NCBI GenBank assembly: GCA_963767545.1
Contig: CAVYEV010000018.1
Coordinates: 84,142 to 148,141 of the forward strand
DNA from: Terriglobia bacterium
GTDB taxonomy: Bacteria; Acidobacteriota; Terriglobia; Bryobacterales; Bryobacteraceae
Reading direction: 5' to 3'
Length of the DNA: 64,000 nucleotides
Shown piece after piece: positions 23,367-64,000 of this stretch. Within the stretch, counting starts at the first letter, position 1; each line of letters starts with the position of its first letter. The position numbers and the translations under genes were made by a program. The notes below the pieces were generated by a model. That model was not told the origin of the DNA and did not search any database. It worked only from the letters and a program-made list of their open reading frames with translations.

Positions 23367-26300
23367 TTACTTTACCGGACCGAGATACCGGTCGAACCAA
23401 TCGAGCGTCTCCTTGATGTTGATCATTATCTGACCATTGGGCGGGACGTGGCCTCCATCCCATAGGATCAGCCGCTTATCCCTTTCAGGAGCGCCCAGCA
23501 ACCGAAACATCGGACCTGCATGATGTTTGGAGCGGAAAAATGAAATCGAGCCGGCCGCCGATCATCAGCGTAGGAACCTTGAAGCGGGAAAGAAAGTTGA
23601 TTGGATCGGCTTCGGGCAACTGGTGCCGGTCGAAAGATAAACCAGAATTTTGAATCACGGCCGCTTTCAGGCGTCGTTCACCCACGGCGAGCACTGGAAT
23701 AACAGCACCACGGCTGAAACCAAGGACGCCAAGCCGGTCGCGATCCACATCCGCGCGGCTGACCAGATAATCGATTGAGCGGCGGAAATCTTTGGATTCG
23801 AGAATCAGCCGGTCGCGCGCCGCGTTGGGGCCGGCGGGTGGGTTAGCATACCGGCGTTGGTAGTGGCCCTTTAGAATCGGCAGCAGGAACGCCCGCCCGC
23901 TCTTGACAATGAAGTCAAACCAATGTTCCTCGACGGGCGTTAGCGACGGTACTTGCAGCGCCAGACTGGGCGCGGCATACAGGATCGTCTGATATGGAGG
24001 GGTTTTATGCTTCGGTATATATAAATAGCCGGGGATCCGCTCGTTTCCGTAGGCAGCGGCAAAAGAGATCTTCTCTCGCTTCCAGTAAGCATTCTCCTCG
24101 TCGATACCTTCGACACGCGAATCGAGCGCGGAAGGATCATACGCATAGAGGCTCCGATAAAGCCGGAACACTTCGTCCGGTACCGGTTTTTCTTTGTTGT
24201 AATCGCGAGTGGGCTTGGTAACCGGCGCCTGGAGCCCGGATTCCGCCCCCGCGTCGTAACGCACACAGCGGATACCATTCTGGGCGGAGCGATCCCAGGG
24301 AAGGCGAGCATCAAGCGCGGCGAACATGTACGCCGGCTCATTCCATGCGCCGCCACGGATAAAGCGTTGGCCACCGATCTCGTTCCAGCACCACTCTTTC
24401 ACGTTGCCGGCCATGTCCAGGGTGCCAAAAGCGCCCAAGCCTTTGTAAGCCCCGGCGCGCGCTGGACCGGAGCCGCCGAAATTGCTCACCTCCGCTACGT
24501 CCACGAAGAAGCCGGGACTCGCTGCCCGCTGCCAGTGGTAAATGGTTGGCAATTGTTTTCCTGCGAATTCCGCGTAAGCCGCGGCTTCATACCAACTCAC
24601 GCCGTTCACCGGATAATCGTCGTGGCCCTGCGGATAGTCGCCCAGTTCCCATGTGGAAGGACCCGGCCGGCCTGTGGTATCGCGACACAACTGCATAGCC
24701 TCGTCCCAGGAGATTCTGCGCCCGTTTTGGACGAAGTCCTGCTTCCAGTAATCCCGCTTCTGATATCCTCCGCGGTCAATGAACTGCTTGAACTGGCGGT
24801 TAGTTACTTCGTAGCGATCGATCAGGAACGTACCGAGCCTCGCGTCCAGGCCGTAAATACTGATAGCGCCGCCAGGCACGCGCACCATATCGGACGGGAT
24901 GCTGCCTACTGCATCCAGGATGAATTCCAGAGGAGGTCCGGGGAGTTCCCCGGCGCCCAGGATGGTTTGGAATCCGGGTTTCACGATGCGAAAACAGTAG
25001 TAGCCGATGGGCAGTTCGTTGGCCGTGAACGGCGTCTTTCCGAGACGCAGCCAGTCGTCATCCCCCGTGCCATACTCGGCCGCCCACACCTCAGCTCCTG
25101 GCGGATCGGTGTTGAAGGAGATGGGAAAGGATATATCGTGATGAATTTGTTTCAGCGTAGGATCGTTGGGAACAATGGCTTCGGCGCGGCGCAGGAGGCG
25201 GAAAACATCCTTCATCTGATTGGCATCCCTCAATCGGGAGATCTCCGGAATCGCCTGCTCTCTCACCCAGCGGGCACGAGAATTGTACTGATAGAGTCGT
25301 ACGCCCAAAGACCCGAGCAGTAGTAGAATCGCGGTTGCCGGGATCGCGAATCTGGGCCGGCGTGCCTGGATGGCCGCGGATCTCCAGCGGCTCCCGCTCT
25401 GTACCTTCTCAATCGCAGTGCGAGCGTCCGTGATACTGTTCAGCCGACGGTTCGCATCTTTTTGAAGACAATGCCGCAACAGTTCGCGAATCTTCGCCGG
25501 GGTTGCGGCGGGCAGAGGCTGCCAGTCCGGCTCATGTTCCAGCACCGCCGCAATGGTGTCCGGGATGGTCTCACCCTCGAACGCGCGTGTTCCGGTGAGC
25601 AGCTCGTACACTAAGCATCCGAACGCCCAGATGTCAGCTCGATCGTCGACGTCTTTTCCGCGCACCTGCTCGGGACTCATGTAGCTCGGCGTGCCGGCAA
25701 TGTGTCCGGCGAGAGTATCTATACTCGTCAGGGTCGCGGATTGCGAGAGATCCTGGTTTCGCTCTGGCCCCCAGATCGCTTTCGCGAGGCCGAAGTCCAG
25801 GACTTTCACTCTGCCTTGAGGCGTGACTTTGACGTTGGCCGGCTTCAGATCGCGGTGAATGATTCCTTTGGCGTGCGCTGCCTCCAGCGCCTCTGCGACC
25901 TGACGGGCGTAATCGAGCGCCCGCTCGACTGGCAGCGGCCCGCGGAGGGACTCCCCCTCGACCAGTTCCAGCACCAGGCAATCCAGATCGCCGGCCTGCT
26001 CCAGCCCGTAAATCGCGGCAATGTTGGGATGGTTTAGCGAAGCCAGCGTGCGCGCCTCGCGACGGAAGCGCGCCAGACGCTCAGGGTCGCGGGCGAACTC
26101 AGAGGGCAAGGTCTTGATGGCGACGTCGCGGTCGAGCTTGCTGTCGTGTGCGCGATATACTTCGCCCATGCCGCCGGCGCCGAGCGGAGATACGATTCGA
26201 TAAGGTCCGAATTGCCGGCCTGGAGGAATCGCCGTGGTGTAAACCATTGCAGGTGTCTCGAGGAAACTCCCGGCGTCTTCCGCCTTTGCCAACAGCAGTT

Positions 26301-26427
26301 CGACTTGATGCCGCATGTCGGCGTCTGCGCCGCATGCAACGCCGAGGAATGCCCTCCGCTCCTCAGGCTCTTGCTCCAGAGCCGAGTGGAAGAGCCCCAA
26401 TACTCTCCGCCGGCGTTGCTGGTCCAT
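23367..26427 (-). CDS. Ser/Thr protein kinase fused to FGE-sulfatase (SUMF1-like) and alpha/beta-hydrolase domains (1 frameshift near 23520)
   Basis: Kinase motifs GAGGMGEVYRA, VAIKTL, HRDLKPANV, DFGLAK and SPEQ, then a TM helix. FGE-like RVPGG..IDRYEVTNRQF..GVSWYEAAAYAEFAGKQLPT..RGGAW follows. The C-terminal hydrolase (GFSRGA) ends DWFDRYLGPVK-stop at 23367 in another frame. Confidence 0.75.
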
Positions 26428-26514
26428 GGCAATGACGTCCTTGCTGTCTCACAATGTTACTGCATTTGCAGCGCTCTGTGATTAACTTATCGCCATGAAA
26501 CCATCTGCCTCCTA

Positions 26515-52614: not shown

Positions 52615-52682
52615 AAATGAAGTGCAACCGCCTGCCGCCCGCTCTCAGAAAAATTCCGGCCGTGTGCTACGATTTCGAAATC

Positions 52683-54353
52683 ATGAGGTCCGCCGCCGGC
52701 ATCGCCGTATTCCTGATGTGGACCGTGATTGCTTCACCGCAAACGGAGTTCGGGCGCAACTACGGCCGCTCCATGGTTATCACGCAGCAGGGAATCGCTG
52801 CGACCAGTCAGCCTCTCGCCTCCCAGGCCGCCGCATCGATCCTCGCCCGCGGCGGATCGGCAATCGACGCTGCTATCGCGGCAAATGCAGTCCTCGGACT
52901 TGTGGAGCCAATGATGTGCGGCATCGGCGGCGACCTTTTTGTTCTTTACTGGGATGCGAAGACAGGCGAACTGACCGGCCTCAATGCATCGGGACCCGCG
53001 CCTCGGGGCCTGTCTCCCGAGTTCCTCGCGGCCCACAGTGTAAAGGCCATGCCAACTGCCGGCATTTACACCGTCACCGTGCCGGGTGCTGTTCGCGGCT
53101 GGGCACAGATGCAGCGGAGATACGGCAAACTGCAGTGGCAGGATCTTTTCCAGTCCGCGATAGCCTACGCGGAACAGGGATTCCCCGTCACAGAAGCGAT
53201 CGAGGAACAGTGGGCCGCACAGAACCGGAAGTTGCGCACCAACCCGGAGTCTACGCGCGTTTTTCTGCCGGGAGGTAAACCACCTCGACAAGGCGACCTG
53301 TTCCGCAATCCAGGATTAGCCCACGCCTATCGCCTGCTCGCGGAACGAGGACCAGATGCTTTCTACAAAGGTGAGATCGCCGAAGCCATCCTGAAGACCT
53401 CGCAACATCTGGGCGGAGTCCTCACTGCGCAAGATCTGACCGCGTTCTCGCCGGAATGGGTGAAGCCAATTTCTTCTGACTATCGCGGATGGCGCATCTA
53501 CGAACTTCCGCCCAATACGCAAGGCATGGCCGCACTCGAGATGCTGAACATTATGGAGACTTTTCCGCCCGCGCCAGCACCTTTCAGTCCAATGGAAGTA
53601 CACACCCGTATCGAGGCCATGAAACTGGCCTACTCGGATCTGCGCCGCTACGATGCCGACCCGCTCTTTACCTCAGTGCCCGTGTCCGGAATTTTGTCCA
53701 AAGAATATGCGCGGAAACGTGCCTCTTTGATAAATCCGAAGAAGGCCAATTGCGAAGTGGCAGCGGGACAACCGGTTGCGAGCGATACCACCTACTTGAC
53801 CGTGGTCGATCGCGAAGGCAATATTGCCAGTTGGATCGAAAGCGTATCCGCTATATTCGGCTCCGGTATCACGGTCGACGGGATGGGCTTCATACTGCAC
53901 AATCGCGGCTCCGGCTTCACGCTCCAGGCAGGTCATCCCAACGTACTCGCGCCGGGCAAACGCCCGTTCCACACTATTATTCCCGCGTTCATGGAGAAGG
54001 ACGGCCTGCACATCGGCTTCGGAATCATGGGAGGTCCGAATCAGCCGTTGGCTCATGCCCAGTTCGTTTCGAACATCGTCGACTATGGAATGAATATTCA
54101 GCAGGCGCTGGAATCGCCCCGTTTCTTCAAGGCTTCCGCGAATGGGTGCGCCGTATCCATCGAATCGCGCGTGCCCGCCGCGACAGTGAAGCAACTCTCG
54201 GAATGGGGGCATAAGATAGCCGTGCGCCGGGAATACACCCAGGAGATGGGACGCGGTCAGGCCATTCTGCATAATTCAAAAACCGGTATCAATTTCGCCG
54301 CTTCCGATCCTAGAGCCGACGGCTCCGCGATCCCCGAACCGCTCCAACCCTAG
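52683..54353 (+). CDS. ggt: gamma-glutamyltransferase
   Basis: ATG 52683 and a signal peptide. GGSAIDAAIAANAVLGLVEPMMCGIGGD, the autoprocessing site TTYLTVVD, and GFGIMGGPNQ. Confidence 0.9.
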   Translation: MRSAAGIAVFLMWTVIASPQTEFGRNYGRSMVITQQGIAATSQPLASQAAASILARGGSAIDAAIAANAVLGLVEPMMCGIGGDLFVLYWDAKTGELTGLNASGPAPRGLSPEFLAAHSVKAMPTAGIYTVTVPGAVRGWAQMQRRYGKLQWQDLFQSAIAYAEQGFPVTEAIEEQWAAQNRKLRTNPESTRVFLPGGKPPRQGDLFRNPGLAHAYRLLAERGPDAFYKGEIAEAILKTSQHLGGVLTAQDLTAFSPEWVKPISSDYRGWRIYELPPNTQGMAALEMLNIMETFPPAPAPFSPMEVHTRIEAMKLAYSDLRRYDADPLFTSVPVSGILSKEYARKRASLINPKKANCEVAAGQPVASDTTYLTVVDREGNIASWIESVSAIFGSGITVDGMGFILHNRGSGFTLQAGHPNVLAPGKRPFHTIIPAFMEKDGLHIGFGIMGGPNQPLAHAQFVSNIVDYGMNIQQALESPRFFKASANGCAVSIESRVPAATVKQLSEWGHKIAVRREYTQEMGRGQAILHNSKTGINFAASDPRADGSAIPEPLQP

Positions 54354-54354
54354 C

Positions 54355-57300
54355 TCAACCGCCGAGGACTTCGAAAGTCTCGGCGCCGCAGATCTGCTCG
54401 ATAGCGGCCCGGAACTCGCGGTCGGGGCGCACCTTCAGCCGGCACATCCAGAATCACCGAGAAGTCGCGCGGCGATTCCAGCCGCAGCCGCACTTGCGTA
54501 TCGCCCGGCTTCTTTTGGAAGAGCTGCTGCAACGCCTGCGCTCGTTCCTCCGTTGCCGAGCCGCACTCGAATGGAAATCAGCGACGGCAGCGGGACATGG
54601 GCTTTCTCAAGCGGCACCATCTCCTGGATGGAAATCTTCGTCGCCGCGCCTTCTTCCGGCAGTGCCACGGCGCGGACAAAGACCGCCTGATCCTCGATCA
54701 GCAGCGGCGCGAGGCGCTCATAATTGCGTGGCGAACAGCAGCGACTTCCGTGGTGCCGTCATGATCTTCCAACTGAAACATAGCCCACGGCTCGCCCTTC
54801 TTGTTGCGCTTGCGAACGATGCCGGTCATGACGCCGCACATCGCCACGTCCGCTCCTTTGGCCAGCCCTTCAAGCGAGGTGCTGTCGTGCGTCGACAGCT
54901 CCTTGGCCTTATCGAGATATTGATCCAGCGGATGCCCGGTGACGTAATAGCCGAGCAGCTCTTTCTCGCCTTGCAGCTTGTCGCGTAGACTCCACTCGGG
55001 AGCCTTGGGCAGTTCAGGTTCGGGCTGGTCGTAGCGTAAACGCCTCGCCAAACAGTCCGCCCTGACCCTGCTCACGGTCGCGCCAGACTCGTCTGTCCCG
55101 CTTCCATCGCCGCCTTCCACCGCCAGCATCTTCTGCGCGCGCGTGCCTGGAATCGAATCCATCGCGCCCGCCTTGATCAGGCTTTCGACAATGCGCTTGT
55201 TAACCGGCGCCGGGTCGATCTTTTCGCAGAACTGATAAAGCGAGCGTGAACTTGCCGGCTTCTTTCCGCGCTTTGATAATGGCTTCGCCGGCGTTCGGTC
55301 CCAGATTCTTGATCGCGCCCAAGCCGAAGCGGATGGCTTCTCCATCCGGCGTGAAATTCCAGTCGCTGTGGTGCACGTCGGGCGGCAGAACCTTGATGCC
55401 CATGTCGCGGCATTCGTTGATGTACTTCACCACTTTCGCCGACATTGCCGGTTTCCGACGTCAGCAGCGCCGCCATGAAATCGACCGGATAAGTGCGCTT
55501 TGAAGTAAGCCGTGACAAAGGCCAGATACGCGTAGGCCGCGGAGTGCGACTTGTTGAAGCCGTAGCCGGCGAACTGCTCCATCAGGTCGAATATCTTCTC
55601 GACCTTCTTCTGCGGGAAGCCGCGTTCGCAGCGCGCCTTCGACGAAGCGGTCGCGCTGCTTCGCCATCTCCTCGGCCTTCTTCTTGCCCATCGCGCGGCG
55701 AAGCAGGTCGGCTTCGCCGAGCGAGTAGCCCGCGACGCGGCTCGAGATCTGCATCACCTGCTCCTGATACAGGATCACGCCATAGGTCTCTTCGAGCAGC
55801 GGTTTCAATTCCGGCAGATCGTATTGAATAGTCTTGCGTCCGTGCTTACGCTCGATGAAGTCGTCGAGCATGCCGCCTTGAATCGGGCCCGGCCGGTAAA
55901 GCGCGTTGAGCGCGGTCAAGATCCTCGATGCGGCTTGGCTGATACCGGCGCAGAATGTCGCGCATGCCCGGCGATTCGAACTGGAATACGCCGCTGGTGA
56001 AACCCTTGCAGAAGACCTCGTAGCTCTTGGGATCGTCGAGCGGCAGATCTTCAAGCACCAGCTTTACGCCGTGACGCTTCTCGATCAGGTTGACGCGCGT
56101 CATGGATAAGCGTGAGCGTCGTCAGACCCAGGAAATCCATCTTCAGCAGCGCCAGCTTATCGAGCCCGTTCATGTCGTACTGGGTGACGATTTCGTCCTT
56201 GCTGGTCTTGTATAGCGGCACAAGATTTTTCAGCGGTTCGGGCGAAATCACCACGCCGGCCGCGTGGATGGAGCAGTTGCGCGCCAGGCCCTCAAGACGT
56301 TGCGCGATTTTCAGGATGTCGTCAACCCGCGGATCGGCCTTCGCCATCTCGTTGAAGCCGGGCTCCGCCGCGATCGAATCCGCAAGGCCGATATTGAGCA
56401 CGTTGGGGACGAGTTTCGTTAGCTTATCGACATCCGCAAAGCTGACATCAAGCACACGGCCAACGTCCTTGATAGCTGCGCGGGTGCCGAGCGTGTTGAA
56501 CGTGATGATCTGCGCCACCTGCTCGCGCCCGTACTTCTCGGTGACGTACTGGATCACCTCGCCGCGCCGGTTCATGCAGAAATCGATATCGATATCAGGC
56601 ATGCTGACGCGTTCGGGATTGAGGAAGCGCTCGAACAGCAGGCCGTATTGCAGCGGGTCGATGTCAGTGATCTGCATGGCGTAGCTCACCAGGCTGCCTG
56701 CTGCCGACCCGCGTCCCGGACCCACGGGAATGCCAATCGATTTGGCGTAGCGGATGAAGTCCCAGACGATCAGGAAATAGCCCGAGAACTTCATCTGCTG
56801 GATCATCTTGATTTCGAAATCCAGCCGCTCGACGATATTCGGCGAGATCGTGCTTCAGCCCGCCCTTTTCACGCAAGGCTTCGAGGCGCGGTCGGCGCTT
56901 CTCGAAACCTTCCCGCGCGACGTACTCGAAATAGGAGTGAACGTCGTGAGGCTCGCGGGACGGCGAACTTCGGGAACGGCTCTTTGACTTTGTCGAGACT
57001 GACATGGCAGCGCTGCGCGATATCCCACGTCCGGTCGAGAGAGTCTTCGAGTTCCCCGAAGAGCTCCATCATTTCGGCGCGCGATTTCACGATAGAAATC
57101 GGGATGATCCCAGTGCATCCGGTTGGGATCGGTCATGGTCTTGCCGGTCTGGATGCACATCAGGATTTCATGTGCCCGCGCGTCTTCCCGGCGCAGATAG
57201 TGCGAATCGTTGGTTGCCACCAGCGGAATGCCGGTTTCGTGCGATAGCCGGTTAACCTGCGGGACAAGGCGCTTGTCCTGCTCCAGACCGTGGTCCTGAA

Positions 57301-57823
57301 TTTCGAGAAAGAAGTTGTTTTTGCCGAAGATGTCCTGGTACGTGTAAGCGAGGCGGCGCGCATCGTCGTACTTATCCGCGAGCACGGCTTCATTGAGATC
57401 GCCGCGCAGGCAGGCGGACATCGCGATCAGGCCCTTGGAGTGCGTGTCAGCAGATCTTTATCGATGCGCGGCTTGTAGTAAAAGCCTTCGAGAAAGCTGG
57501 TCGAGACAAGCTTGATCAGATTGCGATAACCGTCCTGCGATCTCGCACAGCAGTACCAGGTGGTTGTAGCGATCGGTATCGGAACGGGTCTTATGACCCT
57601 GCTGCGAAACATAGACTTCGCATCCGATGACGGGATGAATGCCGCTCGATTTGGCGGTGTTGTAGAACTGTACCGCGCCGAAAAGATTCCCGTGGTCGGT
57701 CATCGCAACCGCGGGCATGTTCTGCGCGGCAACGGTATCCATCAACTGGCCGATCTCACAAGCTCCATCGAGGAGGGAATAATCGGTATGGCAGTGCAGG
57801 TGGACAAAGGGCTTATCGGACAT
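54355..57823 (-). pseudogene. dnaE: DNA polymerase III alpha subunit, colinear but broken by at least 10 frame changes as sequenced
   Basis: PHP N-terminus MSDKPFVHLHCHTDYSLLDGA (57823), then GFYYKPRIDK, FFLEIQDHG, FSGYFLIVWDFI, MPDIDIDF, HAAGVVIS, KMDFLGLTTL, LYRPGP and LYQEQVM. The OB-fold tail ends EVLGG-stop at 54355. The pieces spread over at least 12 ORFs in all three minus frames. Confidence 0.85.
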
Positions 57824-57863
57824 CTGGAAGTTACAGCGCTCTCTTCTGGGGGAGGGAACAGTC

Positions 57864-58400
57864 CTATTTTAGCGCGTGAGCGCGCATCCTTACCCATGCG
57901 GAATTGTCTTCGAAACGATTACGTCGCCGCAGGCATTGCGGATAAGATGTCATCGCCAACATGAACTTCTCCAATGTAGTATTTGTTGAAGCGCTTCCTT
58001 CGGATCGATTCCCTTCGCTAAAGAGTTCATCCAGAATGGTTGTGCGACCGATCTGGATATTCCTCACCCTCACACGAATTCCATTGATCCGTTCATCCGT
58101 GAGCATCGCCGCTTTATCGGGCAGGCCCATCCGGAACGGCGATTCGAGAGATGCCTGTCGTCCAAAGACCAGTACCGGCGTCCGGTTCAGTAATCGGTCG
58201 GGCCGTCGCAAAGGATGAATCGCATGTCGCTGTCGCCACGGCAGCAAACCGGTTTATTGTCCTAAAAGTCGCGGAGCTAGGGCGCGATGTGCAGATCGGG
58301 AGCGGTTCTCACTCCTCTTCTCGCGCGGTCAGCCTTGCATTGACCACGAAAGCGGCCGGGAAAGATAGCGACTAGCCCTATTGTCCGCTGACCCCCGAGG
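57864..58400 (-). pseudogene. relic of a MORC/HATPase_c_3-type (GHKL) ATP-binding protein, truncated at both ends and frameshifted
   Basis: INGIRVRVRNIQIGRTTILDELFSEGN / RKRFNKYYIGEVHVGDDIL / RRNRFEDNSAW lie in three frames. They follow the GIRxRxxNIxIGD..LF.E.RFN.Y.IGE.H...IPNARRDxFExN pattern that I recall from HATPase_c_3 defence-island proteins. There is no room for the ATPase N-domain. Confidence 0.35.
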
Positions 58401-58474
58401 TCTAGGACGCAGCTACAGAGACAAATTATTCCTCAGAACATCAAATGCCGGCCGGTCCAGTATGTCTAGTGCGG

Positions 58475-59487
58475 TTATGAATGTTTTTTCTCAAGGGCAG
58501 CGATTCGAAGTGCAATCTTCCGAAGTTCATAGAGAAGCTTGTCACGACTCTGCTAGGGCACGATGCCAGCAGCGTGTCGATTTCTGGCTCGGTTATCCAT
58601 TTCCGGAAGGCTGTTGCTCGCTTGTAGGGAACGCTGTCCGCACCCGAATCCACAGCCCTCTCATGGGCATCCGCCAGCGTAACTTTGCCCTCGGCAAACC
58701 TTTTTAGCACTACCGGCGATGCGCACACTACTGGAAGTTGGTCGCGCAAGTCCATGGCGCGCTCGATGTCGCCGTTCTTTATGCTTTCGACGACCAGGCT
58801 ATCCATCCCGGGATGTTGATTCCGGGCCTTCTTTATCTTGTTCGACTTGATATTCGTCGTAGTAACTCCACCGGTTGATGTCAACCTCGTCATGATCGAC
58901 CATGAACTGGTAGGTGTCAATGAGATGGCCGACTTTCTTCGAGCTCAGGCCAAGTTCGGATGCGAGAACGCTCGCGGACACATTATGCGTTTTGAGCGAC
59001 GGTAGAGAAAGCCAGCCTGTTCGTACGGTGCCCAATCCTTCTTTCCTTTGATGTGGAACTGTCCGAGAAGTGCAAAAATGAGCGATTCTTTCACGTCTGC
59101 CGGCAGTACAGTGCATTTGACTTCTGCCCATTTGATGGGTTCCTTAGCGGCGAGCTGCCTGTAGGCCGCCAGACGGCTGTTACCTTCCAGTACATCGAGC
59201 GTACCATCCCGAACCATCAAGGGTTCAAGCAGTCCGCCATTACGCCGGATGTCGTCACGAAGCTCTCGGACATGGTCTAGCTCGCTCAGTTGTTCTTGAA
59301 TCTCTTCCTGCGTCGGCACTTTGCCATTAGCACGCACGACAGAATAGACCCGGGGATTGTCCGCATAGAACTTGAGAGTGCTTTGCTTCAGCAACTGCGT
59401 TGTCGTGGGCACTTTCGCGCCAAGAATCACGATGGACTCACCGGTCGACGCGGGGATGCTTCCTTTGTTGGTATCAGGCATTGTCAT
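58475..59487 (-). pseudogene. ParB/Srx-like N-terminal domain protein, paralog of 61378..62391 (2-3 frameshifts)
   Basis: ATG 59487 overlaps the SNF2 stop. YADNPRVYS, NGGLLEPLMVRDGTLDVLEGNSRLAAYRQL (ParB-box-like) and WAPYEQAGFLY. It continues in ORFs 58799..59131 and 58441..58920. The likely true end, LLYELRKIALRIAALEKKHS-stop at 58475, is in a third frame. Confidence 0.55.
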
Positions 59488-60957
59488 GGTTTCCGTCGAG
59501 GCCGAGCACATCGCGTATCATTGCGCCGTATGCGTAGTTGGCCTGCTTAGAGTATTCGTCCAAGGTTATGTCGCCTTGGCCGAGCTGCGCCGCGAGGTGT
59601 TTTGCGGCCAGCAGAACATCGACCCATTCGTCGATGGTGTTGCTCGCGATGAGGTTCGTAACGTAGCAGGAGCGCGTCTGTGAAATCCGATGAATGCGGT
59701 CCTGCGCCTGCAGGTAGTCGTCAAGGCTGAAGGACCTGTCATAAAAAACAGCGTGGTTGGCGACGGTCAGCGTCAGCCCTTCTTTCGCTGCAGCCGGTGT
59801 AGCAATAAGAATCTTGCAGCTAGGATCGGTTTTGAAGCTCTTAATTGAGGGTCACGCTCAAAGATGCTGCGTTTACCGTGGACCCTGACAGCGCCGAAGT
59901 CCGCCAGCTCCCGCGCCAGCCAATCGACGTTGTCGGTGAAAGAAGTCCAGACGATCATCTTCTCCCCAACATCGACAGCGGCATGGACAAGGTTCAGAAG
60001 GATCTCGAACTTTCCGGGAATGGCGCGGTACGAATCGTCGACCAGAATCGGATTGGACGCGACTTGCACGAGGCGCATCAGGCGCTTAAGCATTTCCTCT
60101 GCGTCATCCAGCACCGCTTTGCCGTCCTTCACGACTATTGCGGACATTTCCTTTTGGAAATGCTTGTAAATTTCGCTCTGCCAGGATTCGAGCTCTACCT
60201 CGACATTGCGCAGCTCCTTTTCCGGCAGGGTTATTTCGACGGTACCCTTCGTTTCGCGAACGGTGAAGGGGGCGATTCGCGCGAAGACGCCGGCGAGCGC
60301 GCGTTGGAAGCGGTCCACGCGGTACGGGTCCGAAACGAGGTCGTTCGTGAGATCGAGATCGCGTTTGAAATCGTTGAAATCGGGTCCGAGCGCCACGCCG
60401 CCATCGAGAAACCGAATCTGAGCCCAAATGTCATAGGGGCGGTTCGCCACGGGAGTCCCCGTCATGATGAGCCGCCGGGTAAAGCCGGTGCCAAGCGAGA
60501 ACAGGACCTTCGCTATCGAGGAGTCCGGGTTTTTGATCTTGTGAGCTTCATCAAGCAGGACCCCAACCCTGCGTGTGCGCAGGAAAAGCGCGAGGCGTTT
60601 TTGCTCCGACTTTAGAACTTCGTAATGGGCGAGATAGATCCGGGCAGGGCTGTTGAACGCGAAAAAATTGGCTCGCTTGTCCTGACTCAGCAGCCGTGGC
60701 TCTAGATGCGTGTGGATTTTGAGTTCGTCCTTCCAGTTCCGCAGCAGCCCTTTTTTGGTCACGATGATGACGGAATCCACGATGTCGTGAGTCAGCCAGT
60801 AGAGGGCGAGATCGACCCCTATTTTCGTCTTGCCCAAGCCCTGTTCGTGAAACACTGCGGAGTAGGGGAGGTCCTTGACGGCTTCGAGTGCTTCCACCTG
60901 GTAGACGAATCCACCGTGCTTGGCTGTGAAGTCTGCTGGGCGATGGGTTTTCAGCAT
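59474..60957 (-). CDS. compact SNF2-family ATPase/helicase (1 frameshift near 59855)
   Basis: Motif I HEQGLGKT, II LLDEAHKIKN, III MTGTPVANRPYDIW. After the frame change come KILIATPAAAKEGLTLTVANHAVFYDRSFSLDDYLQAQDRIHRISQTR (motifs IV-VI). It ends GNHDNA-stop at 59474. Confidence 0.8.
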
Positions 60958-60963
60958 AGGGCG

Positions 60964-61374
60964 TCAGAGACCGAGGTCGTCGAGGGTCACGGTCCTGACG
61001 GATGCGGCCCCCGCCGCCTTCTGCAATGTCGAAACAATCGCCTGCGCGCGGCGCTTCACCTGCCACGGCACCGCCATGATAAAAACGCCTGCGTCCTGGT
61101 AGCGCAGATGCGAGAGAAAGGCCGCGATTTGCTTCTTGGAGCGCTCGGTTTCCAGGTCTTCCTTGGTCTTGGCTTCCCCGATGATCGTGGTCGTCCGAGG
61201 GGCGTCGAAGGCGTACACGTCCGGTACGAAGCCCTCAATGCGATTGGGTTTCTCTGCGCCGATGGCGCTGGAAAGATCGTCGACGATTCCAAGCGCCGTC
61301 ACTTGGGCGTGTTCGCGCTTGATGTAGCCGATGATGATTTGAACCAGAGCCGCGTGTTGACTGGATTCGGCCAA
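60964..61374 (-). CDS. small PD-(D/E)XK-like nuclease-fold protein (136 aa, TTG start)
   Basis: GFVPDVYAFDAPRTTTIIGEAKTKEDL gives a D...E-x-K spacing typical of restriction-endonuclease-like folds. It starts 3 nt after the upstream stop and ends 6 nt before the SNF2 ATG. Confidence 0.45.
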   Translation of the reverse strand: MAESSQHAALVQIIIGYIKREHAQVTALGIVDDLSSAIGAEKPNRIEGFVPDVYAFDAPRTTTIIGEAKTKEDLETERSKKQIAAFLSHLRYQDAGVFIMAVPWQVKRRAQAIVSTLQKAAGAASVRTVTLDDLGL

Positions 61375-61377
61375 TAC

Positions 61378-62391
61378 TCACGCTCCCGAGCCCGTGGCAT
61401 TTAGAAGGCCCGTCAAAGCCGTTAGGGTTTCGCCCAGAGTCTGGCCGAGTTCCGAACCGGGATCTTTACGGAGCCGCTCTGCCTCTGTCCAAGGCAAGGC
61501 ATAGATCGCCCGGCTGAGCGCCTGCGATAGCTGTTCGATATTCGCGTCACCAAGCGCCTTGTTGAGATCGGGCCTGTCGAGCGCTTCCATGGCTTTCTTC
61601 GCGTTCTGTTTCAGGAAGATTTCGCGCGCCTTCGGATGCGCAAGAATTCGGGTGAGCCAGCGGACAGTATAAAGGGGATAGAGCTTCTCCTCGTGAATCC
61701 ACTTCGCGAAATCGCCAAGGTCAAAGCCCGCCTTGGCGATGGCTTCCTTCACACCTGGCTTCTGAAGTTCGACAAATCCACTGAACCTGCTGGTGTCAAA
61801 GCTGCCGTCATCAGGAACCACCGGCCGGTAATACGCCTCCATCTCCGAAAAGGCGTTGATGCTCTCGAGCACGTCTTTCTGGCGCCCACCGCAGAAGTCC
61901 ACAATCTTGGAGAACGGCAACTGTTCTTGATTGCGGAGGTGATGCAGGTACTTCGCTTTCGAGTACGGGTCCCATGCGCGTGTGCCGACGAGGTGAACCT
62001 GCAAACGGATCGCATCGGCCTGATTCTCGTCCATCTCGTTATGGACCAGCGCTGGGATAGCCTGCCAGCTTCCCGGAACACTTTCCTTCAGGAAGTTTTT
62101 ATAAATCGCGACGCGGGTATTGCCCTCAATGCATATTAAGGTTCCGTCCGGCCTTCGGTTCAGGATGACCGGATGAATTATTCCGCCATTTGTGAGAATG
62201 GAGTTTTTTAATTTCTCGAAGCTTGTGCTGCTTTCGCCTTCCTCGTCTCCCGCCGCCCCCAGGGCGAGATAGATCTGGTCGCTCGTGGGTTGCTCCACGT
62301 AAAACTCCAGGAACTTCCGAATCCTCGGATTGGTACGATCAAGCTCGATGTCCGTTACGGGGACGAACTCCAGAACTCCGCTTTTAACCAT
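61378..62391 (-). CDS. ParB/Srx-like N-terminal domain protein (338 aa from ATG 62391)
   Basis: VPVTDIELDRTNPRIRKF, NGGIIHPVILNRRPDGTLICIEGNTRVAIY and WDPYSKAKYLHHL. The long 5' extension of ORF 61378..62847 is rejected because it runs antisense through the DGQHR gene start. Confidence 0.6.
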   Translation of the reverse strand: MVKSGVLEFVPVTDIELDRTNPRIRKFLEFYVEQPTSDQIYLALGAAGDEEGESSTSFEKLKNSILTNGGIIHPVILNRRPDGTLICIEGNTRVAIYKNFLKESVPGSWQAIPALVHNEMDENQADAIRLQVHLVGTRAWDPYSKAKYLHHLRNQEQLPFSKIVDFCGGRQKDVLESINAFSEMEAYYRPVVPDDGSFDTSRFSGFVELQKPGVKEAIAKAGFDLGDFAKWIHEEKLYPLYTVRWLTRILAHPKAREIFLKQNAKKAMEALDRPDLNKALGDANIEQLSQALSRAIYALPWTEAERLRKDPGSELGQTLGETLTALTGLLNATGSGA

Positions 62392-62601
62392 ATGTATTGT
62401 TTCTCGCGCTGGTAGTAAATTATGGCAGATCAGATGCCTCTGCGCTCGATACGCTAAAGTGTTGATGACAGGCGGTTTTGTCTGTTTTACCGAGACTGGC
62501 AAGCGCGGCTTCCAAAAGCGCATCGGATGGCTGACAAATCTGCATTGGATAACTGCAACTTCGGTCTCCGCCGCTGCCGAAAATGCTGATATGATTGGTC
62601 C

Positions 62602-63634
62602 GTGACCTTCGACGGTATCCTTGGAATGTCGGCCGGGCGGGAAGTTTTTCTCGGTTTCGCGCCAGCTAACGTGTTGCACGCCTTTGAGCTTCGCGGACGT
62701 GCTCGATGAAGATACCGGACGCGGATACCAGCGCCGTTTCAATTCTGCGCATAGCCTCGATTTCCGGAGATATATCCAGCAGGACAACAGCTCAACGATC
62801 CCGCTGACGTTCAACGCCCGCAAGCGGACGGACGGGGCGTGGCGCATCGAACGTCTGAAGTCTCCCCACGCGCGGATGATAATCGCATCCGAAGGCCAGA
62901 AAATTGTTCACCCAGGTGGACTGCCAGCACCGCCTCGGGCACCTTAATGATTTGTACTCGAGCTGCCGTTCATGTGCTTCATCGGGCTGACGGAACGCGA
63001 GGAGATGGAGGTCTTCAACGTCATTAACAGCAAGGCGAAGGGACTGAGCACGAGCCTGCTGGATTTCCACGACGCACGCTGGCGCGCGATCTGGCTGCCG
63101 AGCGGCCGGAGCTTTTCATCGCCCTGCACCTCAACAATGAAGCCAGTCCCCGTGGTATCGACCAACTCGACCTCGGCGGCAACATAACCTCCGGGCTGAC
63201 CCGGCGCGCTTCGCTGCGCACGATGCAGAAGGCGATAAAGCGGTTCCTTACGCAGACCAAGATTCTCCATAAGCAGCGCCCTGAAGTGGTCGCGCAGATG
63301 GTGCTGGATTTCTGGGCGGCCGTCGCCCTGTTTGCTGCGCGATGCATGGGACAACCCTCGGAGAACTCTTCTTTGCAAAGGCGTCGGCGTTTACGCGCTG
63401 ATGGGCATCGCAGGTGACCTGGTTAACGAGGCGGGACCGCCGGCGATCGACAAGCGTATTTCAGCAACAAGCTCGCGGATTTCATTCTGGAAGTCGACTG
63501 GAGCAACAGATGGGCCGCTTCAGCGGCCTGGGCGGAGAGGCCGGGGTCAAGGCTGCCTCAATGCCCTCCGCGCTGGAGCGCGGAACGGAAAGCTGCAGGG
63601 TGATCTCAAATGGCTAACAAAAACATCCTCCTGA
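62602..63634 (+). pseudogene. DndB-like DGQHR-domain protein (motif reads DCQHR), at least 6 frameshifts
   Basis: Colinear pieces are FDGILGMSAGREVFLGFAPANVLHA / SFADVLDEDTGRGYQRRFNSAHSLDFRRYI / KLFTQVDCQHRLGHLNDL / LELPFMCFIGLTEREEMEVFNVINSKAKGLSTSLLDFHDA / LARDLAAERPELFIALHLNNEA / LGGNITSGLTRRASLRTMQKAIKRFL..VLDFWAAV / KGVGVYALMGIAGDLVNEAG. The start could be GTG 62602 or ATG 62591/62626. Confidence 0.55.
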
Positions 63635-64000
63635 TCGAGCCCGGCTACAAGAACAAGTACCCGCCGCTCGGCCTGATGAAGATCGCTCAGTATCACGGCC
63701 CTCACGGCAAAGGGACAGGGTCAGGTTCATCAAGGGTGAGGATGACCTTCGGTCTTTGGGACCGCATGGGACCGGATCTACATCACGACGCTCTTCTCCT
63801 TCGAATTCGCGCGGATAAGCACAGAGCATCGACTTCGCGCTGAGGGTCGCGAACGGTCACGCCGACAAAATTTTCGTCGGCGGCATCGCGGCTTCACTGA
63901 TGCCCGAGCGGTTCGTCGAGAACCGAGCTGGCACGGCATCCGGTTCATCAGGGGCCTGCTGACGGGCCCCCGTCAAATCCCTCCAGCTCGACGAATTCTC
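63610..64000 (+). pseudogene. B12-binding-domain-like N-terminus of a probable radical SAM enzyme (at least 3 frameshifts; 3' end outside window)
   Basis: [30 protein letters not shown], then in other frames DRVRFIKGEDD, WDRIYITTLFSFEFARI and IDFALRVANGHADKIFVGGIAASLMPERF. This follows the pattern of class-B rSAM B12-binding domains. No CxxxCxxC is visible within the window. Confidence 0.3.

What the first reader, a model, noticed from the sequence alone, without database searches (positions are those of the whole stretch)
58475..62391. Translationally coupled four-gene cassette: ParB-like / mini PD-(D/E)XK / SNF2 / ParB-like
All four genes are on the minus strand with tight junctions. The gap from ParB-1 stop to the TTG start of the 136-aa gene is 3 nt. 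The gap from the 136-aa stop to the SNF2 ATG is 6 nt. The SNF2 stop (59474-59476) lies inside the start region of ParB-2 (ATG 59487 or 59481). The two ParB-like proteins are about the same length (337-338 aa). They share an NPR motif, an (N)GG-hydrophobic-x-P...EGN(T/S)R ParB-box-like segment and a W-x-PY segment, so they are paralogs bracketing an ATPase and a putative nuclease. ParB/Srx folds can be CTPase clamps or nucleases. Pairing two of them with a SNF2 translocase and a restriction-endonuclease fold suggests a DNA-sensing and cleavage machine rather than chromosome partition: no parA or parS context was recognised.
Basis: partly seen in the sequence, partly recalled or inferred. Interest (0 to 1): 0.75.

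Follow-up and report, generated by a model that had tools for sequence, protein, structure and literature searches.

The report
ParB–nuclease–SNF2 arm of radical-SAM defence system
The four tightly packed genes are real and form one arm of a widespread six-to-seven-gene system (with a radical-SAM enzyme and an Hsp90-like ATPase) that I could not find described; it most likely marks the cell's own DNA and cuts foreign DNA.

Summary
On the minus strand lie ParB-like 1 (61378-62391), a 136-aa gene (60964-61374, TTG start), a minimal SNF2 ATPase (59474-60957) and ParB-like 2 (58475-59481). The junctions are +3 nt, +6 nt and an 8-nt overlap. SNF2 carries one frame-breaking indel and ParB2 three.

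The domain calls are supported. ParB1's predicted fold matches ParB/KorB/Noc CTPase clamps. The two ParB-likes are paralogues (hhalign 99.5%). The small protein has an invariant E…PD…ExK signature on an αβββαβ core.

The cassette is not autonomous. All four genes lie in the same order in 73 of 80 genomes from more than ten phyla. Of 56 loci with enough flank, 55 also carry a divergent radical-SAM enzyme and 52 a GHKL ATPase; 20 carry a DGQHR (DndB/DpdB-like) protein. In the window these genes lie divergently from 62626 and run off the end.

The radical-SAM module also occurs without the cassette, paired instead with other partner genes, among them PIN-like and possible HEPN nucleases.

Best reading (about 0.5): the cassette is the restriction arm of a Dnd/Dpd-like modification–restriction system. 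No paper, PADLOC or NCBIfam model describes it. Function is inferred, not shown.

The parts
61378..62391 (-). ParB-like 1 (337 aa, intact): ParB/Srx N-domain, an HTH-like middle domain and a helical C-terminal region
   Evidence: ORF. 1506 homologues at 60-95% identity. AF2 pLDDT 84. Foldseek top 27 hits are all ParB/KorB/Noc/Spo0J. Invariant NPR, GG-I-P, EGNTR and WDPYSKAKYL. Pfam ParB_N gives no hit for the window protein.
60964..61374 (-). 136-aa stand-alone putative PD-(D/E)XK nuclease (TTG start)
   Evidence: Invariant P51-D52, G66-E67-A68-K69 and D73; E3 in at least 90% of sequences. AF2 pLDDT 87 with α-β-β-β-α-β order. Foldseek hits are weak (E about 3e-3, TM 0.43-0.5), but six of the top nine are PD-(D/E)XK nucleases. 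847 clusters in an exhaustive search, almost all 131-145 aa. No Pfam, NCBIfam or PADLOC hit.
59474..60957 (-). Minimal SNF2-family ATPase/translocase (494 aa after repairing a 1-nt deletion near 59849)
   Evidence: Pfam SNF2-rel_dom 9e-30. The C-terminal helicase lobe is in another frame. Best solved relative is the Sulfolobus Rad54-like core 1z63, E 3e-35 over residues 38-468. Motifs GLGKT, DExx, TGTP..NRP and QAQDRIHRISQ are conserved.
58475..59481 (-). ParB-like 2 (336 aa after repairing three deletions near 58997, 58849 and 58547); alternative ATG at 59487
   Evidence: Paralogue of ParB1. Invariant NPR, VLEGNSRLAA and WSYY. TIGR00180 parB_part 3.7e-05 for the Mesorhizobium orthologue, below the curated cut-off.
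62392..62625 (.). Divergent intergenic region between ParB1 and the DGQHR gene (presumed promoters)
   Evidence: No promoter-like or terminator-like excess over shuffles. One weak inverted repeat only. No palindrome conserved across 78 loci.
62626..63617 (+). DGQHR (DndB/DpdB-like) gene of the partner module, broken by about 9 small indels in this sequence
   Evidence: tblastn to the L010 orthologue, E 3e-98, spread over frames 1, 2, 1 and 3. Indels listed. Orthologue hits TIGR03187 DGQHR at 1.3e-36 (above cut-off) and DpdB at 1.7e-15. dN/dS 0.069 after frame correction.
63610..64000 (+). N-terminal ~130 codons of the radical-SAM gene (about 540 aa in relatives), cut by the window end and also carrying indels
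   Evidence: tblastn. Relatives have an invariant CxxxCxxC and an N-terminal Rossmann/B12-like domain. RefSeq calls it 'radical SAM protein'. The GHKL ATPase gene that follows it in relatives lies beyond the window.
57876..58130 (-). ~85-aa remnant of a second GHKL ATPase (the paralogue that elsewhere pairs with a PIN-like protein), between ParB2 and dnaE
   Evidence: tblastn E 4.8e-10 to L013 GHKL2 residues 283-363. Similarity of the window to the closest genome locus (L013) ends at 58481, just downstream of the ParB2 stop.

Best explanation
The four genes are the effector (restriction-type) arm of a conserved two-module system of six to seven genes.

The constant arm, seen here from 62626 to the window end, encodes a divergent radical-SAM enzyme with a B12-like N-domain and an Hsp90/MutL-like GHKL ATPase. 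In about a third of the loci with both flanks available (20 of 56) it also encodes a DGQHR protein of the DndB/DpdB kind. By analogy with Dnd (Fe-S enzyme + DNA-clamping ATPase + DndB) and Dpd (DpdA + DpdB), I infer that this arm puts a covalent mark on the host's own DNA.

The cassette would then police DNA in these steps, all inferred:
1. The two ParB-like paralogues, probably as a heterodimer, bind a nucleotide through their G-x-x-R pocket and close on DNA like ParB/KorB/Noc clamps.
2. They recruit the minimal SNF2 motor, which pulls double-stranded DNA through the complex.
3. The 136-aa PD-(D/E)XK subunit cuts DNA that lacks the mark.

Shown here: gene order and coupling, the folds and motifs, the obligate linkage to the radical-SAM module, the one-sided dependence between modules, and horizontal spread in islands and plasmids.

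Inferred: DNA modification, clamp behaviour, the heterodimer, cleavage, and defence itself.

The frame breaks in this copy are most likely sequence errors rather than decay.
For: (1) Synteny. All four genes lie in the same order in 73 of 80 genomes spanning Acidobacteriota, Alpha-, Beta- and Gammaproteobacteria, Verrucomicrobiota, Chloroflexota, Planctomycetota, Thermotogota, Atribacterota, Spirochaetota, Binatia and others.

(2) Linkage. Of 56 loci with at least 5.5 kb on both sides, 55 carry the radical-SAM gene, 52 the GHKL and 20 the DGQHR. The relative position of the two modules varies: upstream, downstream, divergent or convergent. They therefore behave as two operons that travel together. 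No other gene family is conserved in the flanks.

(3) Asymmetry, as in restriction-modification systems. The radical-SAM module occurs without the cassette in 6 of 13 plasmid records with a radical-SAM match; one of the 6 is a distant Bacteroides match. It also occurs without it in 2 of 3 contigs picked by the radical-SAM protein. In those cases it has other partners: PIN_8 + a second GHKL, a 770-786-aa DGQHR protein with a weak HEPN match, or a HerA/FtsK-like ATPase.

(4) Active-site motifs are conserved in all proteins: SNF2 motifs I, II and VI; GHKL N-box and DxGxG; radical-SAM CxxxCxxC; PD…ExK; G-x-x-R.

(5) DGQHR proteins are otherwise known from DNA-modification systems. The orthologue matches the DGQHR and DpdB models. 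DpdB's role is described in PMC12839542 and DndB's in PMC10853773.

(6) Context. Plasmids and islands with integrases, toxin-antitoxin pairs, AbiEii, a weak Shedu SduA_C match, Gabija-like genes, a type II methyltransferase and a dGTPase-like HD protein. Similarity between the window and its closest genome relative stops just past the ParB2 stop.

(7) Purifying selection on all six window genes after frame repair, dN/dS 0.03-0.11.
Against: - No DNA modification, nuclease, NTPase or anti-phage activity has been measured for any member.
- The radical-SAM enzyme matches known families only around its cluster-binding loop, so its substrate is unknown.
- About two thirds of systems lack a detectable DGQHR gene, which weakens the Dnd/Dpd analogy.
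- A constant core with swappable effectors is also the pattern of signalling systems such as CBASS.
- The structural support for the nuclease fold is weak (E about 3e-3, TM about 0.45-0.5).
- ParB Box-III catalytic residues (ENxxR) are not evident, so CTP hydrolysis is uncertain.
- The defence-island context is anecdotal, not tested statistically.
- One locus (L066) has the cassette with no radical-SAM gene within 6.9-10 kb.
Confidence: 0.5

Rival explanations
1. A single integrated defence machine with no self-marking. The radical-SAM/GHKL core senses infection, or makes a nucleotide-derived product or signal (as viperin-type radical-SAM enzymes do). This activates whichever nuclease module is attached: ParB/SNF2/REase, PIN + GHKL2, or DGQHR-HEPN.
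For: - A constant core with swappable partner modules, among them PIN-like and possible HEPN nucleases, is typical of sensor-effector systems.
- Radical-SAM enzymes already act in defence without modifying DNA: viperins (my own knowledge) and Ophion (bioRxiv 10.1101/2025.09.30.679545).
- DGQHR is absent from most loci.
- ParB/Srx and GHKL domains bind nucleotides, so they could read a nucleotide signal.
Against: - The partner modules have no recognisable signal-binding domains (no CARF, SAVED, SLOG or TIR hits).
- They carry their own motors and NTPases, as restriction complexes do.
- The cassette essentially never occurs without the core whereas the core occurs without it. This fits protection from self-cleavage, although it also fits a simple dependence on the core.
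- The radical-SAM enzyme has the B12-like/methylthiotransferase-type layout rather than a viperin match.
Confidence: 0.22
2. A DNA-maintenance or silencing system rather than a cutting one. ParB-like clamps plus an SNF2 motor and a MORC/MutL-like ATPase would compact, partition or transcriptionally silence plasmid or foreign DNA (KorB-like or MORC-like). The small protein would be a structural or inactive subunit.
For: - ParB1's model resembles ParB, KorB and Noc over both the N-domain and the HTH region.
- Several carriers are large plasmids.
- GHKL ATPases of the MORC type compact DNA (my own knowledge).
Against: - No gene family other than the system's own (so no parA) is conserved in the flanks, and no conserved palindromic site lies upstream.
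- Carrier plasmids have their own repABC partition genes.
- Most carriers are chromosomal and the distribution is patchy.
- The PD…ExK residues of the small protein are invariant across 38 aligned homologues and conserved in at least 90% of 88 further copies, which argues for catalysis.
- One alternative partner module carries a PIN nuclease domain and another a weak HEPN match.
Confidence: 0.08
3. In this particular genome the locus is a decaying pseudogene cluster with no current function. This is independent of what intact copies do.
For: - Frame-breaking indels: 1 in SNF2, 3 in ParB2, about 14 in DGQHR plus the radical-SAM N-terminus.
- A truncated remnant of a second GHKL gene sits next to ParB2.
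- ParB1 and the small gene have no indels while their neighbours have many, which is unlike uniform sequencing noise.
Against: - After frame repair every gene shows strong purifying selection against L013 (dN/dS 0.03-0.11, 88-94% amino-acid identity at about 84% DNA identity).
- The essential dnaE gene immediately downstream is split into eight or more pieces in the same way, which points to sequence error in this stretch.
Confidence: 0.15

Closest known systems
Dpd system (DpdA/DpdB/DpdC 7-deazaguanine DNA modification with the DpdD-K restriction genes)
   Same: - A DGQHR-type ParB/Srx protein sits in the modification arm. The orthologue matches the DpdB models at 1.7e-15 and 8.7e-16.
- An SNF2-type helicase sits in the restriction arm, with DpdE domain-level hits down to 1.3e-21.
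- Two-module island architecture.
   Different: - No further gene family (so no DpdA/TGT, DpdC or preQ0 genes) is conserved near the system.
- The enzyme here is a radical-SAM protein with a GHKL ATPase.
- The SNF2 is a bare 494-aa core, against more than 1000 aa for DpdE.
- All hits are far below the curated cut-offs.
Dnd / Ssp phosphorothioate systems (DndABCDE with DndFGH; SspABCD with SspE)
   Same: - Logic: an Fe-S enzyme, a DNA-handling ATPase and a DndB-like protein as the modification arm.
- Restriction arms are interchangeable and often uncoupled (PMC10853773).
- SspE and GmrSD pair a ParB/Srx-type NTPase domain with a nuclease (my own knowledge; the GmrSD ParB + HNH architecture is in PMC12839542).
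   Different: - No further gene family (so no DndA, DndC, DndD, DndE or Ssp proteins) is conserved near the system.
- The Fe-S enzyme is a true radical-SAM TIM-barrel protein, not a PP-loop ATPase.
- The ATPase is GHKL, not SMC/ABC.
- The nuclease is a separate PD-(D/E)XK subunit, not a fused HNH.
- Two ParB-like proteins with HTH regions and an SNF2 motor are present.
ParB-family CTPase DNA clamps (ParB/Spo0J, Noc, KorB)
   Same: - ParB1's predicted structure aligns to these over 235-275 columns, covering the N-domain and the HTH region.
- The NPR and G-x-x-R motifs are retained.
   Different: - Sequence similarity is marginal: Pfam ParB_N E 0.07 or no hit, and no PDB hit with sequence profiles.
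- The GERRxR box is reduced to EGN(T/S)R and the ENxxR box is not evident.
- No parA partner is conserved and no parS-like site was found.
- They are embedded with a nuclease and an SNF2 motor.
SNF2-containing defence systems (DISARM DrmD, Zorya ZorD, BREX BrxHI)
   Same: The SNF2 ATPase core is homologous at domain level: ZorD 3.8e-24, DrmD 1e-9.
   Different: - Only the helicase core matches.
- Scores are far below the equivalog cut-offs (58 bits against 1500 for ZorD).
- No further gene family (so none of the other DISARM, Zorya or BREX components) is conserved in the flanks.
GHKL/MORC ATPases linked to restriction-modification-like operons (prokaryotic MORC/paraMORC systems; my own knowledge of Iyer et al. 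2008)
   Same: A HATPase_c_3 ATPase sits in an operon context with helicases and nucleases.
   Different: A radical-SAM partner and a ParB-like pair are not, to my knowledge, part of those systems. I could not check this paper in the library.

Membership tests
ParB/Srx superfamily (ParB N-terminal domain, PF02195) | ParB/Srx alpha/beta N-domain fold | tested here: met
   ParB1 AF2 model (pLDDT 84). Its top 27 PDB hits are all ParB/KorB/Noc/Spo0J, followed by PadC, SbnI and sulfiredoxin. ParB2 is covered through its homology to ParB1.
ParB/Srx superfamily (ParB N-terminal domain, PF02195) | Conserved G-x-x-R phosphate-binding motif (GERR / DGQHR / GCHR equivalent) | tested here: met
   E89-G90-N91-T92-R93 is invariant in ParB1. 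E99-G100-N101-R103 is invariant in ParB2, with S102 conserved in at least 90%. The equivalence to GERR rests on my own knowledge of the superfamily.
ParB/Srx superfamily (ParB N-terminal domain, PF02195) | Score above Pfam's gathering threshold | tested here: not met
   ParB1 has no hit. ParB2 scores E 0.07, 13.6 bits, against a cut-off of 26.3. Some homologues carry a precomputed PF02195 hit.
Partition-type ParB (ParABS) | Adjacent parA ATPase and parS sites | tested here: not met
   No gene family other than the system's own (so no parA) is conserved in the flanks of 80 loci. No conserved palindrome upstream. Carrier plasmid pR132505 has a separate repABC.
Partition-type ParB (ParABS) | CTP binding and hydrolysis, and clamp closure on DNA | not testable with these tools
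   Needs purified protein. The Box-III ENxxR residues are not evident in the conservation strings.
PD-(D/E)XK nuclease superfamily | Catalytic D…(D/E)xK on the second and third core strands, plus an N-terminal helix acidic residue | tested here: met
   Invariant P51-D52 before strand 53-56 and E67-A-K69 at the end of strand 63-68. E3 in helix 1 is conserved in at least 90% of sequences.
PD-(D/E)XK nuclease superfamily | αβββαβ core with significant structural similarity to known members | tested here: inconclusive
   The topology fits. The best Foldseek hits include PD-(D/E)XK proteins (CdiA-CT 4zqu and 4g6u, SfsA 4dap, Can2, Cdn1, AF1548, PaqCI), but E is only 3e-3 or weaker and TM is 0.43-0.52. 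No Pfam hit.
SNF2 family ATPases | SNF2-related N-lobe plus Helicase_C lobe with motifs I, II (DExx) and VI | tested here: met
   PF00176 at 9.4e-30. Orthologues carry SNF2-rel_dom + Helicase_C. 1z63 at E 3e-35. GLGKT, DE..K and QAQDRIHRISQ are conserved. The window copy needs a 1-nt repair.
Dpd (7-deazaguanine) system | DpdA (TGT-like transglycosylase) and DpdC next to DpdB | tested here: not met
   No gene family is conserved in the flanks of the 80 loci other than the ParB-likes, the small protein, SNF2, radical-SAM, GHKL and DGQHR, plus clusters of short antisense ORFs taken as spurious. The DpdB model scores 56.8 bits against a cut-off of 300.
Dnd phosphorothioation system | DndC/DndD/DndE (and DndA) modification genes | tested here: not met
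   None is conserved among the neighbours. The short system DGQHR did not match the DndB equivalog (TIGR03233); only the 778-aa neighbouring DGQHR protein did, at 19.7 bits against a cut-off of 328.
Radical-SAM superfamily (partner gene 63610 onwards) | CxxxCxxC cluster-binding motif at the start of a TIM-barrel core | tested here: met
   C175, C179 and C182 are invariant in 22 diverse members. PF04055 at 4.6e-05 is below its cut-off. RefSeq names it 'radical SAM protein'. Only the first ~130 codons lie in the window, upstream of the motif.
Known, named defence systems (PADLOC v2, NCBIfam 2026) | Model hits for the system-specific proteins | tested here: not met
   ParB1 and ParB2 give only weak domain-level hits, best 2.7e-10 for the Mesorhizobium ParB2 (PDC-M38A, PD-Lambda-5_A). 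The small protein, radical-SAM and GHKL give no PADLOC hits. There are no equivalog-level NCBIfam hits.

The most novel reading that the evidence does not exclude
The system is a previously undescribed kind of DNA modification-restriction. A cobalamin-type radical-SAM enzyme, helped by a GHKL clamp ATPase, would install a new carbon-centred mark directly on double-stranded DNA. A heterodimeric ParB-like, nucleotide-gated sliding clamp would be used for immunity rather than segregation: it would load an SNF2 motor and a minimal restriction-fold nuclease onto unmarked DNA.
Probability: 0.3. Interest if true: 0.9.

Novelty: new variant of a known kind. Interest (0 to 1): 0.77.

Why it matters
- It would add a new enzyme chemistry (radical SAM) to the short list of ways bacteria mark their own DNA: methylation, phosphorothioation and 7-deazaguanine.
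- It would give ParB-type nucleotide-gated clamps a role in immunity rather than segregation.
- The system is widespread: at least 154 of about 185,000 species genomes, 847 sequence clusters of the nuclease subunit, more than ten phyla, and rhizobial plasmids.
- Its proteins are annotated as hypothetical or generic.
- It is directly testable because cultured carriers exist. Rhizobium leguminosarum WSM1325 plasmid pR132505 has the full system. Novosphingobium aromaticivorans DSM 12444 plasmid pNL1 has the radical-SAM module without the cassette.
- An unknown DNA modification would also matter for sequencing, cloning and transformation of these bacteria.

Tried and rejected
- Sequence-profile searches of ParB1 and ParB2 against PDB sequences found nothing useful. 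Only the fold comparison worked.
- hhalign of the DGQHR family against ParB1 and ParB2 gave no signal. The three are related only at superfamily level, by outside classification.
- I looked for a parS-like site. One weak inverted repeat lies in the divergent intergenic region. No palindrome or k-mer is conserved upstream of ParB1 in 78 loci.
- The promoter and terminator scan of 57700-62800 was at shuffle level. It neither supports nor contradicts a single operon.
- Phage origin is unlikely: 6 IMG/VR loci and no close match in isolated phages.
- An apparent ParB1-nuclease fusion (P0393) looks like a frameshifted gene call and is not evidence of interaction.
- I tested whether the window's indels cluster at a sequence motif, as modified-base basecalling errors might. 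No 4-mer survives multiple testing. A GC3 frame-tracking attempt to map frameshifts over the whole window was too coarse.
- The exact-sequence look-up of the window's ParB1 found no source contig.
- Ten literature searches found no description of the system. Ophion, a radical-SAM defence system, is unrelated in composition.
- The radical-SAM enzyme is not QueE, viperin or MiaB by any model above threshold.

Full report
**1. The observation**

ORF listing and three-frame translation and direct reading of the junctions confirm four co-directional minus-strand genes.
- ParB-like 1: 62391→61378, 337 aa, ATG start.
- A 136-aa gene: 61374→60964, TTG start, 3 nt after the ParB1 stop.
- An SNF2 gene: from the ATG at 60957, 6 nt after the small-gene stop.
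- ParB-like 2: its ATG (59481, or 59487) overlaps the SNF2 stop (59476-59474) by 8 or 14 nt. It ends at 58477-58475.

ParB1 and the small gene are intact. SNF2 changes frame near 59849. ParB2 changes frame near 58997, 58849 and 58547. These positions were located by tblastn and DNA alignment to intact relatives. After repair SNF2 is 494 aa and ParB2 is 336 aa.

The two proteins align at 27% identity over 200 residues, E 2e-14. Their family profiles match at 99.5%, E 5e-23.

**2. What the four proteins are**

*ParB1.* Pfam and NCBIfam barely see it, and sequence profiles find no solved relative. The AlphaFold model built on 32 homologues (pLDDT 84) retrieves only ParB-family CTPase clamps as its top 27 PDB hits: Myxococcus, Caulobacter and Bacillus ParB, KorB, Noc and Spo0J, at E 1e-6 to 2e-4. 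The alignments span 168-277 columns (235-277 for the top 20), covering the N-domain and the following HTH region. More distant ParB/Srx members (PadC, SbnI, sulfiredoxin) follow. The superfamily's G-x-x-R motif is invariant as EGNTR in ParB1 and EGNSR in ParB2.

*The 136-aa protein.* It has no family hit. Its alignment shows invariant P51-D52 and G66-E67-A68-K69, with E3 conserved in at least 90% of sequences. The model (pLDDT 87) has helix-strand-strand-strand-helix-strand order, with D52 and E67/K69 on the second and third strands. Foldseek matches are weak (E 3e-3 or weaker, TM about 0.45-0.5). Six of the top nine are PD-(D/E)XK nucleases: CdiA-CT toxins, SfsA, Can2 and Cdn1, with AF1548 and PaqCI further down. 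I regard 'mini PD-(D/E)XK' as likely on motif plus topology, but not proven.

*SNF2.* It is a bare ATPase core. The best solved relative is the Sulfolobus Rad54-like core, E 3e-35. Motifs I, II and VI are conserved.

**3. The cassette is one arm of a larger system**

Context look-ups for ParB1 homologues showed the same four genes in Mesorhizobium and in metagenomic contigs. They always lay next to a DndB-like gene, a gene of about 540 aa with no Pfam hit, and a HATPase_c_3 gene.

These three are:
- a DGQHR-domain protein (TIGR03187 at 1.3e-36; DpdB at 1.7e-15);
- a divergent radical-SAM enzyme with an invariant CxxxCxxC, an N-terminal Rossmann/B12-like domain without conserved cysteines, and only weak RimO, MiaB or B12-radical-SAM similarity;
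- an Hsp90/HtpG-like GHKL ATPase with an intact N-box and DxGxG.

In the window this module lies divergently from the cassette. The DGQHR gene is at 62626-63617 and the radical-SAM N-terminus at 63610-64000, where the window ends.

A scan of one genome per species found 154 carriers, and 80 loci were fetched. All four cassette genes lie in order in 73 of the 80; the other 7 are cut contigs or disrupted copies. Of 56 loci with at least 5.5 kb on both sides, 55 have the radical-SAM gene, 52 the GHKL and 20 the DGQHR. The two modules sit in every relative arrangement: radical-SAM upstream on the same strand in 23 loci, downstream on the same strand in 26, downstream on the opposite strand in 13, and upstream divergent in 8. 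Clustering all flank ORFs found no other conserved partner.

RefSeq annotates the locus on R. leguminosarum WSM1325 plasmid pR132505 as hypothetical / hypothetical / DEAD-DEAH helicase / ParB N-terminal domain protein / DGQHR protein / radical SAM protein / ATP-binding protein.

**4. Which arm is constant**

Searching plasmids with the radical-SAM protein gave 13 records, against 7 for ParB1. On Novosphingobium pNL1 and an Agrobacterium plasmid, DGQHR-radical-SAM-GHKL occurs without the cassette. There it is accompanied by a PIN_8 protein with a second GHKL paralogue, and by a DGQHR protein of 770-786 aa that gives a weak C-terminal HEPN match in two of the three copies scanned (pNL1 and Mesorhizobium, not the Agrobacterium copy).

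Three contigs were chosen by the radical-SAM protein alone.
- One has the full system inside an island with AbiEii, a weak Shedu SduA_C match, Gabija-like genes and integrases.
- One has the module alone, near integrase and TIR/NACHT genes.
- One has it with a HerA/FtsK-like ATPase and a GHKL2.

So the cassette depends on the radical-SAM module, but the module does not depend on the cassette. The module takes several alternative partner modules, among them PIN-like and possible HEPN nucleases. The PIN + GHKL2 pair also sits beside the full system in at least 9 of 80 loci. An ~85-aa remnant of a GHKL2 lies in the window at 57876-58130.

**5. Mechanism**

The pattern is a constant enzyme module, interchangeable nuclease modules and one-way dependence. 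It spreads patchily and horizontally on plasmids and islands, and its boundary in the window falls just past the ParB2 stop. This is the pattern of modification-restriction systems such as Dnd and Dpd, whose modification arms are often uncoupled from their restriction arms (PMC10853773). DGQHR proteins are otherwise known from exactly those systems (PMC10853773, PMC12839542).

I therefore favour, at about 0.5, a model in which radical-SAM + GHKL (with or without DGQHR) marks host DNA. The ParB1/ParB2 clamp-like pair then loads the SNF2 motor and the small nuclease onto unmarked DNA. A precedent for a radical-SAM enzyme acting directly on DNA is spore photoproduct lyase (my own knowledge).

Only the anatomy, conservation and linkage are shown. 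Modification, clamp action, the heterodimer, cleavage and defence are all inferred.

The main rival, at about 0.2, is a sensor-effector system without self-marking. A partition or silencing role is unlikely: no further gene family (so no parA) is conserved in the flanks, no conserved site was found, carrier plasmids have their own repABC, and the catalytic residues are invariant.

**6. State of this copy**

The window has about 14 small insertions and deletions in DGQHR plus the radical-SAM N-terminus, 3 in ParB2, 1 in SNF2, and none in ParB1 or the small gene. After frame repair, all six genes show strong purifying selection against the closest genome locus, with dN/dS 0.03-0.11. The essential dnaE gene just downstream is fragmented in the same way.

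Sequence error in this stretch is therefore the simplest reading. Its unevenness is unexplained: the indels are not at homopolymers, and no motif is enriched around them.

**7. Novelty**

PADLOC v2 and NCBIfam (2026) have no models for the system-specific proteins. Only domain-level hits appear for SNF2 (ZorD, DpdE, DrmD), for the ParB-likes (PDC-M38A, PD-Lambda-5_A) and for DGQHR. Ten full-text searches found no description. The library lacks most subscription-journal papers, so an earlier comparative-genomics mention cannot be excluded.

I rate it a new variant of a known kind: a multi-gene, modification-restriction-like island system with an unprecedented combination of parts. An exhaustive search for the nuclease subunit gives 847 sequence clusters, nearly all stand-alone proteins of 131-145 aa, so the family is sizeable and specific to this system.

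Noticed in passing
window 54400-57823 (- strand): The dnaE gene (DNA polymerase III alpha; it starts MSDKPFVHLHCHTDYSLLDGA at 57823) is split into at least eight ORF pieces in different frames. Other long genes of the window are intact, for example 23485-26448 and 52617-54353. This suggests locally poor sequence quality near this end of the window.
   Followed up: partly
window 57876-58130 (- strand): An ~85-aa remnant homologous to residues 283-363 of a second GHKL ATPase (tblastn E 4.8e-10), squeezed between ParB2 and dnaE. In other genomes this paralogue is full length and paired with a PIN_8 protein.
   Followed up: yes
window 62626-64000 (+ strand): Indel density is very uneven. There are about 14 events in DGQHR plus the radical-SAM N-terminus, against none in the adjacent 1.43 kb of ParB1 plus the small gene. 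dN/dS is low everywhere. No motif or homopolymer association was found. Unexplained.
   Followed up: partly
L013 2110-5573; L093 20274-23790; L100 7090-10643: A recurring two-gene module sits next to the radical-SAM module, with or without the ParB/SNF2 cassette: a PIN_8 protein of about 640 aa and a second HATPase_c_3 ATPase of about 510-530 aa. It has no PADLOC match beyond a weak TmtA hit.
   Followed up: partly
L001 15628-17964; L100 15183-17492; L101 8499-10859: Long (770-786 aa) DGQHR proteins with a central DndB domain flank the radical-SAM module. The Mesorhizobium and pNL1 copies give a weak C-terminal Swt1-like HEPN match; the Agrobacterium copy does not. They may be a further alternative effector.
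   Followed up: partly
L103 6165-13149: A variant in an integrative element: a HerA/FtsK-like ATPase, a GHKL2, a 262-aa protein, radical-SAM and GHKL, with no ParB/SNF2 cassette and no DndB Pfam hit on record for any called gene.
   Followed up: no
L104 1-21638: The full seven-gene system plus a second short DGQHR gene lies between AbiEii, a weak Shedu SduA_C match, UvrD + AAA_15 (Gabija-like) genes and two integrases. This is a clear defence-island setting.
   Followed up: no
window 61378-62847 (- strand): The longest ORF containing ParB1 is 489 aa. The extra 152 N-terminal codons run across the divergent intergenic region and into the DGQHR gene, and they have no counterpart in homologues of 337-341 aa. 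This is a spurious extension that gene callers may report.
   Followed up: yes
P0393 (489 aa, metagenomic): An apparent fusion of ParB1 to the 136-aa protein. The linker region looks like an out-of-frame translation of the ParB1 C-terminus, so it is probably a frameshifted gene call and not a natural fusion.
   Followed up: partly
L066 10001-14068: The only fetched locus with good flanks that has the full four-gene cassette but no detectable radical-SAM or GHKL gene within 6.9 kb downstream or 10 kb upstream. It may be a split system or an exception to the dependence rule.
   Followed up: no
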